Below are positions 7,970 through 62,027 of a stretch of 64,000 nt of DNA, one piece after another. Where the stretch lies: IMG/VR virus record IMGVR_UViG_3300019487_000031, positions 1 through 64,000 of that record; one strand, written 5' to 3'. The notes under the pieces are model-generated. The model was given only the letters and a program-made list of their open reading frames with translations. It had not been told where the DNA came from and ran no database searches. The position numbers and the translations under genes were made by a program. Every line of letters begins with the position of its first letter. Within the stretch, counting starts at the first letter, position 1. Source of the DNA: a virus.

Positions 7970-9072
7970 GACTTAGTTTTTCAGCTTTAAATCAATATAT
8001 GCAATGTGGGCGTCGTTACGATCTCCATTATAATAAACGCTTGCGTATTAAAGTCGGCAAAGGTGCCCTTCTTTTTGGTTCTGCAATGGATCATGCCTTA
8101 AACCATCTTCTTAAAACTAGAAATCTTGATGAATCCATCTCTTTATTTAAAAAGTCTTGGAGCTATCAAAATATTAATGATGTTGGCGAATATCTTCCGT
8201 ATTCAACCAAAGTGGTTTATGGTCCCAAGGATTATGATGGAGATTTGATTTTTGAACAAGATAGTTTAAAGTTTCTTGAACTCTTTAAAGAAAAATTCAG
8301 CCTTAATACCGATAAGTCTTTAAAACAACTAACTGCTTTTTACCGCGAGCTTAAAAAAGAAAAAGGATTTGACGGATTAATCGAAGATCAAAAAAGAGTT
8401 TATAATTACGGGCACTGGGTTTGTATGTTCAATAAAGGACTTTTAATGATCCAGGCTTATAATGCTGAGATTATGCCTAAAATTAAAGAAGTTTTATCAG
8501 TACAAGAATCTTTCTCGATTGAGAACAACGCAGGAGATTCTATTCCCGGATTTATTGATATGGTTGTTCGTTGGGAAGATGGTAATGTTTATATTATGGA
8601 TAATAAGACTTCTGGCTCAGAATACGACGATGATGCAGCTAGCAAGTCCCCGCAGTTAATTACTTATTTACATGCTCGTGGTGGACATTATAAAGCAATT
8701 GGTGTGGGTTTTAATGTGCTTTATAAACAAATTGATAAGAATAAAAAGAAGACTTGTTCTTTGTGTCAATACAACGGTTCAGAAGGGCGTCATAAAACTT
8801 GTCCTAATGAATTGGAAGGAAAACGTTGTAATGGAGCTTGGATTGAAACGATTGATCCCAAAGCTAGAGTTCAATATATCTTAAACAAGGTTAGTTCTTT
8901 TGCTGAAGATCTTGTATTGGATGCGTTTGATGAAGCGGTTTCTGGAATTAAGGCCGAGGTTTTTAATCCCAATCTTCAGGCTTGCGGCGATGGTGAATGG
9001 AGATGTCAATTTTATGATAAGTGTTGGAAAGGCGATGAATCGGATTTAATTAAATTGGAGAAAACGTCATGA
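7966..9072 (+). CDS. PD-(D/E)XK nuclease of RecB/Cas4-like type with Fe-S Cys cluster and an inserted zinc finger
   Basis: GFIDMVV...IMDNKTS matches (D...D/E-x-K). There is an N-terminal Cys (MQCGRRY) plus a C-terminal CGDGEWRCQFYDKC cluster (C-x6-C-x5-C), as in Cas4/AddB. The middle carries CSLCQY...CPNELEGKRC. The ORF overlaps the upstream gene by ATGA. Confidence 0.7.
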   Translation: MRLSFSALNQYMQCGRRYDLHYNKRLRIKVGKGALLFGSAMDHALNHLLKTRNLDESISLFKKSWSYQNINDVGEYLPYSTKVVYGPKDYDGDLIFEQDSLKFLELFKEKFSLNTDKSLKQLTAFYRELKKEKGFDGLIEDQKRVYNYGHWVCMFNKGLLMIQAYNAEIMPKIKEVLSVQESFSIENNAGDSIPGFIDMVVRWEDGNVYIMDNKTSGSEYDDDAASKSPQLITYLHARGGHYKAIGVGFNVLYKQIDKNKKKTCSLCQYNGSEGRHKTCPNELEGKRCNGAWIETIDPKARVQYILNKVSSFAEDLVLDAFDEAVSGIKAEVFNPNLQACGDGEWRCQFYDKCWKGDESDLIKLEKTS

Positions 9073-9678
9073 TTGGCGATTTTCTTATGCTTTTGGTTTT
9101 ACTCGGTTGTTGTTGGTTAGTTTATTTACTTCGGGAGGAAAAATGAAAGTTTATGTAGTAGAAATGCTTCGCTATGGTGAGCGAGAATTGCATTCTTATG
9201 TAATTGGAGTTTTTCCAACCAGGACTTTAGCGGAAAAAGAAGGGGAAGAAGAAGAAAGAGAATTTCGTGGTGGGAAATATGAAGCTGAAATTTTAGAATT
9301 TGAATTAGATTTACCCATTGACACTAAACTTTAATTTGATATAATATAGTTTCAAACAATTCTCCCGGGGGGATAGTTTTATAACTCTTATTAGCCATAA
9401 TTATATTAGGAATTGTTTTTCATTTAACAAATCTTAGAATAACCAATAATTGGACACATTATAATGTTGATCGTGAATACCTATATGAACAAAATGCAGA
9501 GTTTATTAAAGTAAAACATAGCCTTCATCAAACTCAACGAATGTTATACGCAACTTGTACGATGTTTGAAGATACAAAAGCCAAAGATCATACAACTTGG
9601 GTTATGAGAGATGTTATTTGTCCAACATATAAAGAGAAACTTATTAATGATCGATGAATCTATATTATAGGATTAATC

Positions 9679-9706
9679 TTGACAGATAGTAGTTTTTTGA
9701 TATAAT
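9679..9706 (+). promoter_or_regulatory. Sigma70-like promoter (TTGACA-16-TATAAT) in the 550-bp non-coding gap upstream of the TROVE gene
   Basis: TTGACA at 9679-9684 and TATAAT at 9701-9706 with a 16-nt spacer. Read directly from the sequence. Confidence 0.5.
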
Positions 9707-9884
9707 ACTTAGTACAGTTTTGGAGTAGTGAAGGATACAGTTACTTCTTATCGGAAAGACAATACACTGTGCCTGATTTTCTCTCCAATAATTTTTCGTA
9801 GTAGTGAGCTAAATGGTTACTTCTTTTGCGTGAAACATACCATTGGCATTTTTCTCTACGATTTTTTTATAAAGGAATGTAATA

Positions 9885-11405
9885 ATGAAATTTAATGAAA
9901 ATGCAACAAAAGAAGAAGTTGTTAATTATATGGGCAAAAAAGCCTATAAACAATCCCCTAAAGAAGAACTAATTTTTGCCGTTTTAACCACTTTCATTGA
10001 AGATTCTTATTATGAAAACAAGACAGATCGTCTTGACCGAATTAAGTCTTTAGTTAAGGCCGCTGATCCTAAATTCGTTGCTAAGTTGGCAGTATACGCT
10101 AGAACAGTATTTCATATGCGGTCTGTGTTCGCCGTTTTAATTGGCGAACTTTCCAAAATTCACAAAGGAACTAGTCTTGTACGAAAAGCTATTGTACAAG
10201 GCGTAACTAGAGTAGATGATATTACTGAGATTGTTTCTTATTTAGGAGTTACTAATCCAATTCCTAATTCTGTAAAAAAAGGAATTAACGAGGCTCTTAA
10301 TAAATTCGATTCATATCATTTTGCGAAATATAGAGGAGAAAATAAAACTGTAAAACTAATAGATGTTGTTAATTTAACTCATCCTAAAGCTACTAATCCT
10401 AAAACGTCTGAAGCCCTTCGAAAACTCGTTAAAAATGAATTAAGAAATACAGATACTTGGGAATCCAAAATGTCAGGCGGACAAAGTGCTGCCTCAACTT
10501 TTAATGAATTGTTAGATTCTAATAAATTGGGATACATGGCACTTCTTAGAAATCTTCGTAATATCGCAAATACCGGAGATACTAATTTAGTTAAAAAAGT
10601 CGCAGCTATGATTAGTAATACAGAACAAGTTAAAAAATCTAAGCAGCTGCCTTTTCGTTTTCTGTCAGCTTTTGAAGCCTTGGAACAAAATACTGATTCT
10701 ACTGGGGTAGTTTTTGAAGAGGATTCAGATAATACTAATATTCTAAAAAATGCTGTAGAAGAAGCTCTAATGGTTTCTATTCAAAATATTCCACTTTTAA
10801 GTGGCAGAACGCTTATTTTGTCTGATAATTCAGGCTCAATGCATGGAGATAAAGGTGGAAATTCTTTAACTTCAGCCTATTCATCTAGAACTACTGCATC
10901 TATTGCGAATTTGTTTGCCGTATTATATTGGATGAGATCTGATAATACTTTTGTTGGACTTTTTGGCGATAGATTAATCACTCCGAAATTGGACCGAACT
11001 AAGTCAATTTTAACAAATTATAAAACTATTGCCCAATCATCTGGAGACTGTGGTTCTGGAACAGAGAGAGGAATTTTTGATGCCATAGAACTCCTTTTGC
11101 AGGAGAAAAAGAAAGTTGAACGGATTGTTATTTTTTCCGATTGTCAGGTTGGTGATGGTTGTGATTGGTATGACGATTATGGAAATAGAGGAGATAACTT
11201 TAATAAACTACTTAAGAAGTATCAAGAATTTAATCCTAACGTAAAAGTTTATACCGTGAATCTAAAAGGGTATAATAATGAAATGACTTCTCAAGGAAAT
11301 GTAATGAGACTTACTGGATGGAGTGATAAGATTTTTGATATTATGGAAAGAAATGAAATTGCCCCTGAAACTATGGTAAAAGAAGTTGAAACTATTGAAC
11401 TATGA
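9885..11405 (+). CDS. rsr: Ro60-like protein with a TROVE domain and a C-terminal vWA domain (MIDAS DxSxS)
   Basis: N-terminal FAVLTTFIEDSYYE and AKLAVYARTVFHMR resemble the Ro60 TROVE region (FLCFGSEGGTYY). C-terminal LILSDNSGSMHG is a vWA MIDAS motif. Length is 506 aa, typical of Ro60 orthologs. Confidence 0.65.
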   Translation: MKFNENATKEEVVNYMGKKAYKQSPKEELIFAVLTTFIEDSYYENKTDRLDRIKSLVKAADPKFVAKLAVYARTVFHMRSVFAVLIGELSKIHKGTSLVRKAIVQGVTRVDDITEIVSYLGVTNPIPNSVKKGINEALNKFDSYHFAKYRGENKTVKLIDVVNLTHPKATNPKTSEALRKLVKNELRNTDTWESKMSGGQSAASTFNELLDSNKLGYMALLRNLRNIANTGDTNLVKKVAAMISNTEQVKKSKQLPFRFLSAFEALEQNTDSTGVVFEEDSDNTNILKNAVEEALMVSIQNIPLLSGRTLILSDNSGSMHGDKGGNSLTSAYSSRTTASIANLFAVLYWMRSDNTFVGLFGDRLITPKLDRTKSILTNYKTIAQSSGDCGSGTERGIFDAIELLLQEKKKVERIVIFSDCQVGDGCDWYDDYGNRGDNFNKLLKKYQEFNPNVKVYTVNLKGYNNEMTSQGNVMRLTGWSDKIFDIMERNEIAPETMVKEVETIEL

Positions 11406-11529
11406 CATATTTACAAGAATTAAAAGAACGCCAAAGAAGATTGGCGCGCGGGTTCAGACGCGGCTAACGACATTAGAGACATTGAAGCCGAACAAGTTGG
11501 TTATGCTCAAGCTATGTTAGATAAAGCCG

Positions 11530-11979
11530 ATGATAAAACTTTGTACTGATTGTAATCAAGAAAAACCAGCAACTAAAGTTTTTTGGTATAAAAATACCGG
11601 AGGAAAACTAGGTTTTCGTTCTACTTGCAAAATTTGCACCAATAAAGATAATATAGCTAGGCATAAAAAATCTTCTAAAAAATGGGAACTAGCCAAACGA
11701 AACGGCGTTCTAAAAAGAAATTACGGAATTACACTGGAACAATATAATAAAATGTTAATGGAACAAGAAAGTTCTTGTTTAATCTGCCATACAAAAAGTT
11801 CTGGAAGAAAAAATAGTAAGCGTTTATGCGTCGATCATTCCCATAAAACCGGAAAAGTTAAAGGACTTTTATGCTCAATTTGTAATTCAATAATTGGATT
11901 TATCGAAAGGACTAATAATCCTTTGTTAACCGTAGAAAATATAGTAAAATACAGGGATAAATTAGATGAAAAATCTTGA
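11530..11979 (+). CDS. Endonuclease VII-type homing endonuclease (T4 gp49-like) with an N-terminal zinc finger
   Basis: CLICH...LCVDHSHKTGKVKGLLCSICNSIIG matches the endonuclease VII signature (C-x2-C ... DHDH.TG.VRGLLC..CN). Paralogous to 16944, 35198 and 37193. Confidence 0.75.
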   Translation: MIKLCTDCNQEKPATKVFWYKNTGGKLGFRSTCKICTNKDNIARHKKSSKKWELAKRNGVLKRNYGITLEQYNKMLMEQESSCLICHTKSSGRKNSKRLCVDHSHKTGKVKGLLCSICNSIIGFIERTNNPLLTVENIVKYRDKLDEKS

Positions 11980-28377: not shown

Positions 28378-29502
28378 ATGAGAGAATATAAACACGCCAT
28401 TTTCATTGGCCGATTTCAACCGTTCCATAACGGCCATTACGAAGTCCTAAAACAGGCCCTAGAAATTGCCGACACGGTTCTTGTATTAGTCGGTTCTTAT
28501 AAAGTCTCTACAAATATTAAAAATCCTTTTACGTTTGAAGAACGAGTTCAAATGATTCAATCGGTTATTGATGACCGCACTTATGAATATCCTTCTCCAG
28601 ATCAAGCAGTAACTATTGGCGGGGAACTTTTAAAGCGCGTTAAATTTATCCCCGTTCGTGATCATTATAATAACGATAACTTTTGGATTACAGAGGTTCA
28701 GCATAAAGTTTCTGAATATGTAACTGAAAACGAAACAGTTGCATTAGTGGGAAATTATAAAGATGCAAGTAGTTATTATTTAAATCTTTTCCCGCAATGG
28801 GAATTTGTGCCCACAGAACAAAGTTCTAGGCTTTCCGCTACCCAAATCCGCACCATTCTTTTTAAACGCAGTTCTAAAATCCAAGACTTTAACCCATATC
28901 GTCCTGTAACTACCTACGATTCTTTACTTGATCAATCATACGAAAGCATGATTCCATTTAAAATTAATGAGTGGATGATTAAAAACTACTTTAAAACTGA
29001 AAAATACCATAAACACGTAGAAGAATACCAATTTATAGAAAAATATAAGGAACAATGGTCAAATGCTCCTTTTCCTCCCGTTTTTATGACCACGGATTGC
29101 GTTGTAGTATGCTCAGGACACGTTCTTGTCGTGGAACGCGGGTTCAACCCCGGAAAAGGTCAATTGGCGCTTCCTGGGGGCTTTTTAAAGCAAACTGAAG
29201 CTCTTGAGGATGGGGCTTTAAGAGAACTTAAAGAAGAAACGGGTATTTCTATAGATAAGCTAATATTAAAGAATTGTATTGCAGATAAGCGTATTTTTGA
29301 TTATCCTGGTAGGAGTTTAAGAGGAAGAACGATTACTCAAGCTTTCTATATTAGGCTTAAAGATGGGGCTCTTCCAAAACTTAGAGCCGGAGATGATGCT
29401 AATAAAGCAATATGGATTTCTTTAAATGAAGTATCTTCTAAAGAAGAACTGTTTTTTGAAGACCATGCACATATTATTAATTATTTCATTCGGAGAGATT
29501 AA
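28378..29502 (+). CDS. nadM: Bifunctional NMN adenylyltransferase / Nudix hydrolase (NadM-Nudix, phage NatV-like)
   Basis: IFIGRFQPFHNGH is the (H/T)xGH nucleotidyltransferase motif. The C-terminal Nudix box is LPGGFLKQTEALEDGALRELKEETGI (GX5EX7REUXEEXGU). Confidence 0.8.
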   Translation: MREYKHAIFIGRFQPFHNGHYEVLKQALEIADTVLVLVGSYKVSTNIKNPFTFEERVQMIQSVIDDRTYEYPSPDQAVTIGGELLKRVKFIPVRDHYNNDNFWITEVQHKVSEYVTENETVALVGNYKDASSYYLNLFPQWEFVPTEQSSRLSATQIRTILFKRSSKIQDFNPYRPVTTYDSLLDQSYESMIPFKINEWMIKNYFKTEKYHKHVEEYQFIEKYKEQWSNAPFPPVFMTTDCVVVCSGHVLVVERGFNPGKGQLALPGGFLKQTEALEDGALRELKEETGISIDKLILKNCIADKRIFDYPGRSLRGRTITQAFYIRLKDGALPKLRAGDDANKAIWISLNEVSSKEELFFEDHAHIINYFIRRD

Positions 29503-29646
29503 ATGAAGGGAGATTGTCCGGAATGTGGTTCTATGGAAGTTGATTTATATTTTTTAGGAGAAGGTCCTTATACTCCAGAATCTTTCTATTGGCGCGCCGA
29601 TTGTGAATGGTGCGATAATTATAATTCACAAGAAAACGAAGAATAA
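29503..29646 (+). CDS. Small zinc-ribbon protein (47 aa)
   Basis: MKGDCPECGS...RADCEWCDNY (CxxC...CxxC), placed between the NMNAT-Nudix and macro genes. Confidence 0.35.
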   Translation: MKGDCPECGSMEVDLYFLGEGPYTPESFYWRADCEWCDNYNSQENEE

Positions 29647-30152
29647 TGGGACTTGAATATAAAAAAATGTCTTTATTTGATGCGCCGGAAGGTTCAATTA
29701 TTGTCCATGCTTGTAATGCTCAAGGAAGTTGGAATTCTGGAATTGCTAAAGAATTTAAAGAAAGATATCCAAGATCTTTTCAACATTATGAAGAATATTG
29801 TAGATTAAATCCTCGCCATTTAAAAGTTGGACGAGGAAAATTACTTTCTTCAACTATAGAACATAAGCATAAAGTTGGTATACTTATTACTTCAAATAAA
29901 TACGGCGCAGAAAAAGATCCTAAAGAACTTATTAAAATTCAGACAACTCTAGCAATAAATCAACTTTTAGAAACTAATCTTGCCGCGCATGGACGAAATC
30001 CAAGCGTTAAAGGAATTATATATTCTAATAAATTTAATTCAGGACTTTTTAAAGTTCCTTGGAAAGAAACTGAATTGATTTTGACAACGGTTTTAAAACA
30101 CTATTCATGGATTACTTGGATAGTTTGCGATCCTAATCATGAGACAGACTGA
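29646..30152 (+). CDS. Macro domain protein (ADP-ribose binding/hydrolase)
   Basis: SIIVHACNAQGSWNSGIAKEF resembles the macro-domain N-terminal signature (VNAAN...GGGVDGAI). Confidence 0.65.
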   Translation: MGLEYKKMSLFDAPEGSIIVHACNAQGSWNSGIAKEFKERYPRSFQHYEEYCRLNPRHLKVGRGKLLSSTIEHKHKVGILITSNKYGAEKDPKELIKIQTTLAINQLLETNLAAHGRNPSVKGIIYSNKFNSGLFKVPWKETELILTTVLKHYSWITWIVCDPNHETD

Positions 30153-30651
30153 TAAATATCTTTTCTTTTATGGCGGGTTTTTAAGCCAATGGTATCTTTG
30201 TAAGTTTAATGATTGGTTACGTGATTATAATTGTGCGGAACAATGTATGATGGCTCAAAAGGCTTTACTTTTTGAAGATATTAAATCATTTGATTATATT
30301 ATGAAAGAAACCAACCCGGCTTTCCAAAAAGCACGAGGAAGAAAAATTGAGGGATTTAATCAAGAAAAATGGGATTTGTTTAAAGAAGCCATTGTTTGTA
30401 GTGCCAATTATTTGAAGTTTGCACAAAATAAAACACTTCGAAAGAAATTGTTAGATACTAAAGATTTAATATTGGTAGAAGCTAGTCCATATGATAAAAT
30501 ATGGGGAATTGGATTATCAGAAAATAATCCATTGGCAGATGATGAAAAGAATTGGAAAGGTCAAAACCTTTTAGGAAAAGTTTTAATGAAAGTTAGAGAA
30601 AGTTTAAAAAATGTAGATGAACAATTGAGTTCATTGAATAATAAGGAGTAA
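30139..30651 (+). CDS. NADAR (DUF1768, YbiA-like) ADP-ribose-processing domain protein
   Basis: YLFFYGGFLSQWYLCKF...CAEQCMMAQKA plus LKFAQNKTLRKKLLDTKDLILVEASPYDKIWGIGLS track the E. coli YbiA signatures (FYS..DDYGDFSNF...SEHYFQAQKF ... LLATAPAKLVEHTENDAYWGDG). Confidence 0.8.
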   Translation: MRQTDKYLFFYGGFLSQWYLCKFNDWLRDYNCAEQCMMAQKALLFEDIKSFDYIMKETNPAFQKARGRKIEGFNQEKWDLFKEAIVCSANYLKFAQNKTLRKKLLDTKDLILVEASPYDKIWGIGLSENNPLADDEKNWKGQNLLGKVLMKVRESLKNVDEQLSSLNNKE

Positions 30652-30653
30652 AA

Positions 30654-32021
30654 ATGGAAAATCTAATTCTTGACGTCGATAGTTATAAGTTCTCACATTG
30701 GCTTCAATATCCTGCCAATACATCATACATGTTCTCATATCTTGAAAGTCGTGGAGGAAAGTATTCAAATACACTTTTCTTCGGACTTCAATATCTTATT
30801 AAACAACATTTGACTAAGCCTATTACTCCTGCGATGGTTGAAGAAGCGAAACTTTTTGCTGAAGCGCATGGCGAGCCGTTTAATTATGAAGGCTGGATGT
30901 ATATTGCAAAAGATCTTAAAGGAAAGCTTCCTATTCGTATTAGAGCGGTGGCTGAAGGCGCTGTAGTTCCTACTAGTAATATCCTAATGTCTGTTGAATC
31001 AACTGATCCTAAAGTATTTTGGGTTGTATCCTTCTTTGAAACCCTTTTAATGCGAGTTTGGTATCCTATTACTGTAGCTACTCAATCCTTTCATATTAAA
31101 AAGCTTATTAAGAGTTATTTGGAAAAGACTTCTGATGATGCAAACGCTGAAATTAGTTTTAAGCTTCATGACTTTGGAAGTCGCGGCGTTTCTTCTCAGG
31201 AATCGGCAGGAATTGGCGGGGCGGCGCATCTTGTAAATTTCTTGGGTTCTGATACAGTCGCGGGCGTTTATTATGCCAATCATTTCTATAATAATAAAAT
31301 GGCAGGCTTTTCTATTCCCGCGGCTGAACACTCCACTATGACTATGTGGGGGAGAGAAAATGAAGTCGAAGCATACAGAAATATGCTAAAGCAATATGCA
31401 AAGCCCGGGGCTTTAGTTGCTGTTGTATCAGATTCGTATGATCTTTATAATGCGGTTGAAAATCTTTGGGGAGGAACTCTTAAAGATGAGGTTGTAAATT
31501 CTGGAGCTATTGTTGTAATTCGTCCAGATTCCGGCAATCCTCCTGAAGTAGTTCTTAAAACTCTTCAGCTTCTTGAATCCAAGTTTGGAGTTACTTATAA
31601 TAAGAAGGCTTATAAAGTTTTAAATAATGTTAGAGTAATTCAAGGGGATGGAATTAATGAGGAATCTATTCGTCAAATTCTAGAAGTTGCCACTTCTTAT
31701 GGATACTCGGCTTCTAATATTGCATTTGGAATGGGTGGTGCTCTTTTACAACAAGTTAATCGCGATACTCAAAAGTTCGCCTTTAAATGTTCTGCGGCGC
31801 GAGTTGACGGAAAACTTGTTCCGGTCTTTAAAAGTCCTAAGACTGATCTTGGAAAACAATCTAAGAAAGGTTTATTGGATTTGGTTCTAAAAGGTAATAA
31901 GTTTGAAACGGTTGAAGGATTGGATAATGTTGGTTCTGTATTAAAGGTTGTTTATGAAAATGGACAACTTATAAAAGAACAAACATTGGATGAAATCAGA
32001 AAGAGATCAAACGAGTTTTAA
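30654..32021 (+). CDS. nadV: Nicotinamide phosphoribosyltransferase (NAMPT/NadV)
   Basis: The N-terminus NLILDVDSYKFSHW matches the NAMPT signature (TDSYK.TH). The 455-aa length is typical. Confidence 0.8.
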   Translation: MENLILDVDSYKFSHWLQYPANTSYMFSYLESRGGKYSNTLFFGLQYLIKQHLTKPITPAMVEEAKLFAEAHGEPFNYEGWMYIAKDLKGKLPIRIRAVAEGAVVPTSNILMSVESTDPKVFWVVSFFETLLMRVWYPITVATQSFHIKKLIKSYLEKTSDDANAEISFKLHDFGSRGVSSQESAGIGGAAHLVNFLGSDTVAGVYYANHFYNNKMAGFSIPAAEHSTMTMWGRENEVEAYRNMLKQYAKPGALVAVVSDSYDLYNAVENLWGGTLKDEVVNSGAIVVIRPDSGNPPEVVLKTLQLLESKFGVTYNKKAYKVLNNVRVIQGDGINEESIRQILEVATSYGYSASNIAFGMGGALLQQVNRDTQKFAFKCSAARVDGKLVPVFKSPKTDLGKQSKKGLLDLVLKGNKFETVEGLDNVGSVLKVVYENGQLIKEQTLDEIRKRSNEF

Positions 32022-61916: not shown

Positions 61917-61992
61917 TGGTCTGGAATGCGGGAGTTGCACCCGCACTTCCCTGTCTCCAAAACAGGGCGATTACTAACAATCTCTATTCCAG
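61917..61992 (-). tRNA. tRNA-like gene with anticodon UGG (Pro) and an encoded CCA. The D-arm and T-loop are non-canonical
   Basis: Minus-strand fold: 7-bp acceptor stem CTGGAAT/ATTCCAG, anticodon stem CCTGT/ACAGG with loop TTTGGAG (U33, A37), T-stem GCGGG/CCCGC with loop TGCAACT, discriminator A, then CCA. The 5' end lies 7 nt downstream of a consensus -10 box. Deviations are A8, a weak D-stem and G55. Confidence 0.45.
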
Positions 61993-61998
61993 AAGTGT

Positions 61999-62027
61999 AT
62001 TATATCATTAGTTTATTTTAATGTCAA
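61999..62027 (-). promoter_or_regulatory. Consensus sigma70 promoter (TTGACA-17-TATAAT) on the minus strand driving the tRNA-like gene and the tail operon
   Basis: Minus strand reads TTGACATTAAAATAAACTAATGATATAAT (plus-strand TGTCAA at 62022-62027 and ATTATA at 61999-62004). Confidence 0.55.

What the first reader, a model, noticed from the sequence alone, without database searches (positions are those of the whole stretch)
9335..11405. Phage-encoded Ro60 (TROVE-vWA) ortholog preceded by a 550-bp non-coding region with a near-consensus promoter: candidate Y-RNA locus
ORF 9885..11405 has the Ro60 architecture: TROVE N-domain signatures plus a vWA MIDAS motif DNSGSM. Ro60/Rsr partners with Y RNAs, and in bacteria and mycobacteriophages the Y RNA (YrlA-type, tRNA-like) lies adjacent to the gene. 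The 550-bp gap upstream (9335-9884) has no credible ORF. It carries TTGACA-16-TATAAT at 9679-9706. Downstream of that it carries two direct copies of a GTAGTGA...GTTACTTCTT module (9725-9749 and 9799-9826). A short GC-rich palindromic segment, GGCGCGCGGGTTCAGACGCGGC, lies downstream at 11440-11470. Either region could encode the cognate structured RNA.
Basis: partly seen in the sequence, partly recalled or inferred. Interest (0 to 1): 0.75.

Follow-up and report, generated by a model that had tools for sequence, protein, structure and literature searches.

The report
Phage Ro60 gene with two mini Y-RNAs
A phage gene for a Ro60-type RNA-binding protein is preceded by a consensus promoter and two tandem ~67-nt structured RNAs; they belong to a conserved, database-unannotated family always found beside Ro60 genes, so they are most likely its Y-RNA partners: a new variant of a known system.

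Summary
The finding holds, and the RNA can now be named. ORF 9885-11405 is a full-length TROVE+vWA (Ro60-family) protein. Its closest solved relative is Thermus phage phiLo Ro60.

The consensus promoter at 9679-9706 is followed by two tandem RNAs, E1 (9720-9788) and E2 (9796-9861). They share one fold: a terminal helix, an internal loop (UAGUGA opposite UUUUCUC), a second helix, then an invariant GUUACUUC. Eight of 16 base pairs differ on both sides between E1 and E2 yet still pair.

A covariance model built from them finds more than 120 further copies next to Ro60 genes in phages, Bacteroidota and Clostridia. Every copy lies on the Ro60 strand. In an independent test set 92.7% of cells pair, and the covariation score is 0.92 against 0.10-0.19 for slid controls.

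The closest relatives have promoter, three copies, then Ro60. One of those copies carries the permuted tRNA-like domain of YrlA. The window's copies lack that domain and the GNCGAA motif, and Rfam detects nothing. They are therefore short, YrlB/Yrn2-like Y RNAs, not YrlA.

Two corrections. Half of the "non-coding" gap (9385-9657) looks coding. The downstream GC-rich palindrome is not an RNA candidate. Binding to Ro60 is inferred, not shown.

The parts
9679..9706 (+). Sigma-70 consensus promoter with extended -10 (TTGACA, 16 nt, TGATATAAT). Its -10 hexamer ends 13 nt before E1.
   Evidence: 12 of 12 matches; 4 such sites in the window against 0.12 expected. An equivalent TGATATAnT extended -10 lies 4-6 nt upstream of the first RNA copy in all four closest relatives.
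9720..9788 (+). E1, mini Y-like RNA, 69 nt. P1 is UUGGAG/CUCCAA, followed by a U bulge and AG/CU. The internal loop is UGA opposite GAUUUU. P2 is AGG-A-UACAG / CUGUG-CCU. The apical loop begins with UUACUUCUU.
   Evidence: R1 80.2 bits, E 1e-19. R2 69.4 bits. The minimum-free-energy fold gives the same structure.
9789..9795 (+). U-rich spacer (UAAUUUU) between E1 and E2.
   Evidence: U-rich spacers also follow each copy in the closest relatives.
9796..9861 (+). E2, mini Y-like RNA, 66 nt, with the same architecture as E1. Eight of 16 pairs differ from E1 on both sides and still pair.
   Evidence: R1 85.3 bits, E 3.6e-21. R2 73 bits. Fold z-score -2.85.
9862..9884 (+). U7 run, then the Shine-Dalgarno sequence AAGGA (9872-9876) of the Ro60 gene. 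E2 ends 23 nt before the start codon.
   Evidence: The four closest relatives have the same layout: mini copy, U-rich run, AAGGAG, ATG.
9885..11405 (+). Ro60-family protein (TROVE HEAT-repeat ring plus vWA with MIDAS motif DNSGSM), 506 aa.
   Evidence: Pfam TROVE. PHROG 850. Full-length match to phiLo Ro60, PDB 9KOP/9L5Y. A family profile also hits X. laevis Ro60, human RO60 and D. radiodurans Rsr.
9318..9345 (+). Second perfect consensus promoter. It is not part of the RNA locus. It probably serves the small coding-like frame 9385-9657.

Best explanation
The locus is a Ro60/Y-RNA cassette. A strong sigma-70 promoter (9679-9706) starts transcription a few bases before E1. The transcript carries E1, E2 and, by read-through, the Ro60 mRNA.

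Each RNA folds into a rod: a closing helix formed by its own 5' and 3' ends, an asymmetric internal loop, a second helix with a bulged A, and a pyrimidine-rich apical loop that opens with the invariant GUUACUUC. The U-rich spacers are likely sites of partial termination or endonuclease processing that release the two ~67-nt RNAs.

The Ro60 ring binds the stem. The apical loop gates the ring or tethers it to a host effector. By analogy with the Deinococcus, Salmonella and phiLo systems, that effector would be a 3'-5' exoribonuclease such as PNPase. The phage would thereby redirect host RNA surveillance or decay.

Shown here: the promoter, the fold, its covariation, and its exclusive same-strand association with Ro60 genes. 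Also shown: its kinship with YrlA-like RNAs that carry the same stem.

Inferred: transcription, processing, Ro60 binding and the effector.
For: Fold and covariation
- E1 and E2 fold alike on their own. They differ by compensatory changes at 8 of 16 pairs.
- Model R1 found 30 copies in the window plus 12 Ro60-bearing IMG/VR loci, with 2-4 tandem copies per locus. All 16 pairs show changes on both sides. 91% of cells pair, against 46-57% when the partners are slid.
- In an independent set of 91 copies, 92.7% of cells pair. The covariation score is 0.92 against 0.10-0.19 for slid controls. G-U pairs fit the + strand only.

Specificity
- A motif scan of IMG/VR returned 66 loci. The 15 with a Ro60 homologue nearby are the ones with real model hits.
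- Of the other 51 loci, only one has model hits, and there the hits sit at the edge of the stored locus.
- In 80 bacterial Ro60 loci, all 72 hits lie on the Ro60 strand.

Context
- The four closest homologues (66-71% identity) each have an extended -10 promoter, three tandem copies, then RBS and Ro60.
- In three of them, one copy holds a T-arm / closed stem / D-arm insert. Rfam YrlA matches it below threshold, at E 2e-7 to 2e-5.

Precedent
- M. smegmatis YrlA and YrlB lie upstream of rsr and are processed from a single precursor. [quoted passage not shown]
- phiLo Ro60 binds two upstream Y-like RNAs and host PNPase in vitro (PMC12135203).
Against: - There is no expression or binding data for this phage.
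- E1 and E2 are 66-69 nt, shorter than characterised Y RNAs (80-130 nt).
- They lack the GNCGAAN0-1G motif thought to contact Ro60, and they lack the tRNA-like domain.
- Rfam YrlA and Y_RNA give nothing at E<=10.
- The U runs and closing helices are not classical GC-rich terminators, so release as separate RNAs is uncertain.
- E2 sits directly on the Ro60 5' UTR, which equally suits a cis-acting role.
- Which conserved element is the Ro60 contact (UAGUGA/UUCUC or GUUACUUC) is unknown.
- The covariation counts were made on model-fitted alignments, which lean towards the model's structure.
Confidence: 0.75

Rival explanations
1. E1 and E2 are cis-acting parts of the Ro60 mRNA leader, not free RNAs. 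Ro60 would bind its own 5' UTR to autoregulate translation, or the rods would protect the mRNA 5' end.
For: E2 ends 23 nt before the ATG, leaving only a U run and the Shine-Dalgarno sequence. A mini copy occupies this position in all four closest relatives. No classical terminator was called between E2 and the gene.
Against: In many other genomes the same RNA lies downstream of Ro60 or hundreds of bases away, in arrays with YrlA-like RNAs. Examples are L022/L038, cr112_1 and the Bacteroidota loci. Its function therefore cannot depend on being a leader. The two roles are not mutually exclusive.
Confidence: 0.15
2. The modules are transcription attenuators or terminators, or a repeated selfish element, with no relation to Ro60 binding.
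For: Each module is a hairpin-like rod followed by a U-rich run. Copies occur in tandem arrays.
Against: The window has only two copies. No copy was found away from Ro60 genes in 444 kb of unrelated phage loci, apart from the single locus-edge case. An invariant 8-nt loop motif and an internal loop conserved across phyla are not expected of terminators. The U runs are not conserved in GC-rich relatives.
Confidence: 0.05
3. The cognate RNA is instead the GC-rich palindrome downstream of the gene (11443-11464), or the region is protein-coding (ORF 9728-9895).
For: A short stem can form at 11447-11462. A 55-codon GTG ORF overlaps E1 and E2.
Against: Neither RNA model nor Rfam hits 11406-11529. 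Its fold z-score is only -1.9. It lies in a coding-like frame with a score of 0.82. ORF 9728-9895 scores -0.13, which is not coding-like. The substitution pattern there is that of paired RNA.
Confidence: 0.03

Closest known systems
YrlB / Yrn2-type bacterial Y RNAs: the second Y RNA of S. Typhimurium, M. smegmatis and D. radiodurans (Chen et al. 2014, PMC4201824)
   Same: They are encoded next to the Ro60 gene, on its strand, alongside or downstream of a YrlA-type RNA. [quoted passage not shown] In M. smegmatis they are processed from one precursor upstream of rsr. The published probe sequences imply a UUACUUUCC stretch in Yrn2 and UUACCACUUCU in M. smegmatis YrlA, which resemble GUUACUUC here. 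That comparison is my reading of the probes, not a test.
   Different: YrlB carries the GNCGAAN0-1G motif, and M. smegmatis YrlB may have a T-arm. E1 and E2 have neither. YrlB could not be traced beyond S. enterica by sequence search. The family found here spans phages, Bacteroidota and Clostridia. E1 and E2 are shorter (66-69 nt).
YrlA (Rfam RF02553), the tRNA-mimicking Y RNA
   Same: Both have the modular plan of a Ro60-binding stem plus an apical effector module. In the closest relatives, and in many other loci, the same stem signature encloses a permuted T-arm / closed acceptor stem / D-arm domain. RF02553 matches those copies below threshold.
   Different: The window's RNAs have no tRNA-like domain and no GNCGAA motif, and RF02553 gives no hit at E<=10. 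Even the long copies score 29-45 bits against a gathering score of 69. Where RF02553 aligns, its outer helix corresponds to P2 of this family. P1 and the UAGUGA/UUCUC loop are therefore extra.
Thermus phage phiLo Ro60 with Yrl1 and Yrl2 (PDB 9KOP, 9L5Y; PMC12135203)
   Same: This is the closest solved protein (E 1e-21 over the full length). It is also a phage Ro60 with two tandem Y-like RNAs upstream of the gene. The protein binds them and forms a complex with host PNPase in vitro.
   Different: Yrl1 and Yrl2 were defined by CGAA motifs. The models built here do not match the region upstream of the phiLo gene. They give two weak matches downstream of the gene instead. Protein identity to the window's protein is low: 27% by tblastn and 29% in the multiple alignment.
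Metazoan Y RNAs (Rfam RF00019)
   Same: Both have a terminal helix with a bulge made from the 5' and 3' ends, an internal loop, a pyrimidine-rich loop, a U-rich 3' tail, and several paralogues per genome.
   Different: Metazoan Y RNAs are RNA polymerase III transcripts of 80-112 nt with a GGUCCGA/UUGAC Ro60 site. There is no sequence match here.

Membership tests
Ro60 / Rsr protein family (TROVE + vWA) | TROVE (HEAT-repeat ring) domain | tested here: met
   Pfam PF05731, E 1.2e-22, 81 bits against a cut-off of 23. PHROG 850 over the full length, E 1.5e-52. A family profile hits X. laevis Ro60 at 1e-14, human RO60 at 5e-14 and D. radiodurans Rsr at 7e-13.
Ro60 / Rsr protein family (TROVE + vWA) | C-terminal vWA domain with a MIDAS DxSxS motif | tested here: met
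   D314-N-S316-G-S318-M319. D314, S316, G317, S318 and M319 are invariant in a 16-sequence alignment. The motif aligns to DVSGSM of phiLo Ro60. Pfam VWA_2 alone is below its cut-off, at 15.5 against 27 bits.
Ro60 / Rsr protein family (TROVE + vWA) | Equivalog of enterobacterial Rsr (NCBIfam NF041674) | tested here: not met
   16.5 bits against a cut-off of 900. The protein is a distant homologue, not an Rsr equivalog.
Ro60 / Rsr protein family (TROVE + vWA) | Ring-shaped three-dimensional structure | not tested
   No structure was predicted. The inference rests on the full-length sequence alignment to 9KOP.
Y RNA (general definition) | Encoded close to the Ro60 gene | tested here: met
   E2 ends 23 nt and E1 ends 96 nt upstream of the start codon, on the same strand. 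The same linkage holds in more than 60 other loci.
Y RNA (general definition) | Long stem formed by the 5' and 3' ends, with a bulge or internal loop | tested here: met
   P1, U bulge, AG/CU, internal loop, then P2. Supported by covariation at 16 of 16 pairs.
Y RNA (general definition) | Length of 80-130 nt | tested here: not met
   E1 is 69 nt and E2 is 66 nt. Family lengths fall into two groups, 64-87 nt and 99-147 nt.
Y RNA (general definition) | Bound and stabilised by Ro60 | not testable with these tools
   This needs immunoprecipitation or gel-shift experiments.
YrlA (RF02553) | tRNA-like domain (T-arm, closed acceptor stem, D-arm) | tested here: not met
   ARAGORN and Rfam find nothing in 9335-9884. 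The apical loops are only 26-27 nt. The domain is present in sister copies of the closest relatives.
YrlA (RF02553) | GNCGAAN0-1G motif near the 5' end | tested here: not met
   The motif is absent from E1 and E2 by inspection. The corresponding position carries CAGUUACUUC in E1 and UGGUUACUUC in E2.
YrlA (RF02553) | Rfam gathering score (69 bits) | tested here: not met
   No hit in the window at gathering or at E<=10.

The most novel reading that the evidence does not exclude
The GUUACUUC stem is a distinct, still unannotated Ro60-partner scaffold shared by many phages and bacteria. The phages include crAss-like, Vibrio-, Xanthomonas/Xylella-, Caulobacter-, Streptomyces- and cyanobacterial phages. 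The bacteria are Bacteroidota and Clostridia.

The scaffold would carry interchangeable apical cargo: nothing (as in this window), a plain hairpin, a permuted tRNA mimic, or even a canonical-order tRNA nested exactly inside the stem. Nested tRNAs are seen in csAssE-Sib and a Maribacter genome.

If so, Ro60 in phages would act mainly on tRNA-like cargo held in these stems, for example in maturation or protection of phage tRNAs. The stem-only RNAs of this window would be pure gates or decoys for the ring.
Probability: 0.3. Interest if true: 0.7.

Novelty: new variant of a known kind. Interest (0 to 1): 0.55.

Why it matters
Ro60 and Y RNAs are a conserved RNA-surveillance module and a major human autoantigen. 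In bacteria and phages the RNA partners are known for only a handful of species. The second, non-tRNA-like Y RNAs (YrlB, Yrn2) could not previously be traced by homology.

This locus yields a compact, well-supported covariance model. The model recognises such RNAs, and the stems of divergent YrlA-like RNAs, next to Ro60 genes across phages, Bacteroidota and Clostridia, where Rfam's YrlA model stays below its threshold.

That gives three things:
- a minimal 66-nt substrate for testing what a phage Ro60 recognises;
- candidate RNAs for cultured systems such as crAss-like phages and Flavobacterium or Chryseobacterium;
- a way to correct annotation, because some of these RNAs are currently called tRNAs or hypothetical proteins.

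Tried and rejected
- Rfam at gathering over the whole window, and at E<=10 over 9000-11900, returned only chance-level snoRNA and lncRNA matches.
- ARAGORN found only tRNA-Pro at 61917-61992.
- Folding the whole leader 9710-9884 was not significant (z -0.74). The signal appeared only when the two modules were folded separately.
- The protein query against IMG/VR with peptide patterns found no relative. The DNA motif scan succeeded instead.
- A blastn of the locus against GenBank phages gave one weak hit inside the gene.
- MAFFT alignments of all copies misaligned the 3' ends.
- The downstream palindrome was rejected as an RNA candidate.
- ORF 9728-9895 was rejected as coding.
- The 9385-9657 frame has no homologue in GenBank phages or in the fetched loci. 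Region 9350-9678 has no significant fold (z -0.78).
- One literature search was uninformative, and two reviews were not held.
- No paper in the library links Y RNAs to crAss-like phages or describes the GUUACUUC motif. Absence from this library does not prove novelty. The supplementary lists of Chen et al. 2014 were not available.

Full report
**1. What is in the sequence**

The window is a phage region of 34.8% G+C. It encodes a DNA polymerase, a primase-helicase, ThyX, Dam, endonuclease VII and NAD-salvage enzymes.

ORF 9885-11405 encodes 506 residues.
- It matches Pfam TROVE (E 1.2e-22) and, weakly, VWA_2.
- It matches PHROG 850 'RNA-binding protein' over its whole length (E 1.5e-52).
- Its best solved relative is the Ro60 homologue of Thermus phage phiLo (9KOP/9L5Y), aligned over residues 14-495 (E 1e-21). 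DNSGSM aligns with DVSGSM there.
- A profile of 16 family members also reaches X. laevis Ro60, human RO60 and D. radiodurans Rsr (E 1e-14 to 7e-13).
- It is not an equivalog of enterobacterial Rsr.
- More than 3,500 homologues exist in public data, and several are named '60 kDa SS-A/Ro ribonucleoprotein' by their source.

The promoter at 9679-9706 is a perfect TTGACA-16-TATAAT with an extended -10. It is one of four such sites in the window, against 0.12 expected. Another of the four sits 7 nt before tRNA-Pro.

**2. The RNAs**

The whole leader does not fold significantly. The two repeated modules do fold alike when taken singly. These are E1 (9720-9788) and E2 (9796-9861). Each has:
- a 6-bp closing helix made from its own ends;
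- a bulged U followed by an AG/CU step;
- an internal loop, UGA opposite (G/A)AUUUU;
- a second helix of 3 + 5 bp with a bulged A;
- an apical loop that starts UUACUUCUU.

Each module is followed by a U-rich run. Between E1 and E2, 8 of the 16 pairs differ on both sides and still pair. The overlapping 55-codon ORF is not coding-like (score -0.13).

**3. Comparative evidence**

A scan of IMG/VR for GTAGTGA-N8-16-GTTACTTCTT gave 66 loci, roughly the number expected by chance. Fifteen of them encode a Ro60 homologue nearby on the same strand.

Model R1 was built from E1, E2 and two other copies. It finds 30 copies in the window plus 12 of those loci, with 2-4 in tandem per locus and only two in the 64-kb window. 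Among the 51 loci without a Ro60 gene, only one has model hits, and those hits sit at the edge of the stored locus.

Covariation on these 30 copies:
- all 16 pairs show changes on both sides;
- 91% of cells pair, against 46-57% for slid partners;
- the covariation score is 0.78 against about 0.1.

A second model, R2, was applied to sequences not used to build it.
- It finds three tandem copies in the ~430-bp gap upstream of Ro60 in each of the four closest homologues (66-71% identity).
- It finds copies in cultured or curated phages: cr111_1, cr112_1, csAssE-Sib, Atuin, Mvi-JY20, CcrPW, BRock and Xylella phage Usme.
- It gives 72 hits in 45 of 80 bacterial Ro60 loci (Bacteroidota and Clostridia), all on the Ro60 strand.

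On 91 such independent copies, 92.7% of cells pair and the score is 0.92 against 0.10-0.19 for slid partners. The invariant core is G-UUACUUC. These alignments are fitted to the model, which favours the structure. The slid controls, the agreement with single-sequence folds and the strand bias all argue that the signal is real.

**4. Relation to known Y RNAs**

Family lengths fall into two groups, 64-87 nt and 99-147 nt. Many long copies enclose a T-arm, a closed stem and a D-arm in that order, which is the permuted tRNA mimic that defines YrlA. Rfam's YrlA model matches them only below its threshold, at 29-45 bits against a gathering score of 69. Where it aligns, its outer helix corresponds to P2 of this family, and its CGAAUGCuu stretch corresponds to CGGUUACUUC.

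The window's two RNAs are the short form. They have no tRNA-like domain, no GNCGAAN0-1G motif and no Rfam hit.

Chen et al. 2014 (PMC4201824) reported YrlA-like RNAs near Ro60 in 254 bacterial species and 22 phages. [quoted passage not shown] In M. smegmatis, YrlA and YrlB lie upstream of rsr and are cut from one precursor. E1 and E2 fit that second type.

phiLo Ro60 binds two upstream Y-like RNAs and host PNPase in vitro (PMC12135203). A phage Ro60 with two tandem upstream RNAs therefore has direct precedent.

**5. How it most likely works**

The conserved layout is an extended -10 promoter 4-13 nt before the first copy, tandem copies separated by U-rich spacers, then the Shine-Dalgarno sequence and ATG of Ro60. 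This suggests one transcript from which the RNAs are released, with the Ro60 mRNA made by read-through.

The protein would bind the stem. The pyrimidine-rich loop would gate the ring or tether an exoribonuclease. These steps are inferred from the characterised systems and are not shown here.

A cis-acting leader role for E2 cannot be excluded and may coexist. It cannot be the family's general role, because many copies lie downstream of Ro60 or far from it.

**6.

- Positions 9385-9657, half of the 'non-coding' gap, are coding-like by codon usage. This holds for the part before the first ATG as well. The frame has its own perfect promoter at 9318-9345. It has no canonical start codon before 9541, and no homologue was found.
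- The GC-rich segment at 11443-11464 matches no RNA model. It lies where a 21-codon frame, opened by an ATG that overlaps the Ro60 stop codon, gives way to a +1 coding-like frame running to 11549.

**7. Verdict**

The locus is a real and well-supported Ro60/Y-RNA cassette. The kind of system is known. The specific RNA is a new variant: stem-only, 66-69 nt, with an invariant GUUACUUC, unannotated in Rfam, and traceable across phages and two bacterial phyla. Interest is moderate (0.55).

Noticed in passing
window 9318-9657: A 90-codon open frame (9385-9657) begins with a hydrophobic stretch, LLLAIIILGIVFHL. Its codon usage is clearly coding-like, but it has no ATG/GTG/TTG before 9541. It is preceded by a perfect consensus promoter (9318-9345) and a hairpin containing a G6 run (9361-9373). 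It may use an ATT/ATA start, have lost its start, or reflect a homopolymer sequencing error.
   Followed up: partly
window 11402-11549: An ATG overlapping the Ro60 stop codon (ATGA) opens a 21-codon frame that stops at 11466. The +1 frame is coding-like (score 0.82) from about 11445 to 11549. The switch falls in the GC-rich palindrome 11443-11464. This is either a frameshifted small gene or an assembly error.
   Followed up: partly
window 61917-62027 (- strand): A perfect TTGACA-17-TATAAT promoter lies 7 nt upstream of tRNA-Pro(UGG). The phage's four perfect consensus promoters include two placed directly before small RNA genes.
   Followed up: partly
window 28378-32021; L080 4767-7542; L081 292-2566; L083 4945-6015; L068 6796-7602: NAD-salvage genes (NAMPT, NMNAT-NUDIX, NAPRTase, PRPP-synthetase-like) lie immediately beside the Ro60 cassette in the closest relatives and in crAss-like phage cr111_1. 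In this window they lie about 17-20 kb away. The recurring linkage is unexplained.
   Followed up: no
L079 (Thermus phage phiLo) 4523-4586 and 4714-4791: Two weak tandem matches to the model (13 bits each, with GGUACUUC and CUUUCC) lie downstream of phiLo Ro60. The second, and part of the first, overlap the annotated CDS phiLo_25. They are not the published Yrl1 and Yrl2, which lie upstream.
   Followed up: partly
L069 (phage csAssE-Sib) 2633-2761 and 2779-2908; L089 (Maribacter MAG) 354-487: Canonical-order tRNAs (Tyr, Lys, Thr) are predicted exactly inside the conserved stem, starting 27-29 nt into the element, soon after GUUACUUC. Either annotated 'tRNAs' next to Ro60 genes are Y-RNA cargo, or real pre-tRNAs carry a Ro60-type stem.
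   Followed up: partly
L080 2730-2850, L081 2754-2880, L083 2767-2894: The second of the three tandem copies in three of the closest relatives carries a conserved ~60-nt insert that is not tRNA-like (for example ...GGGACGCCCGACAGCCGCAAGGUUGGGAAAUU...). Its structure and role are unknown.
   Followed up: no
L129 4066-4154 (-), L105 5986-6086 (+); L075 4992-5155: Flavo-1 RNA (RF01705) occurs within about 2 kb of rsr in a Chryseobacterium and a Flavobacterium locus. A near-threshold manA RNA match (49.7 bits against 55.2) lies among the tRNAs of Streptomyces phage BRock.
   Followed up: no
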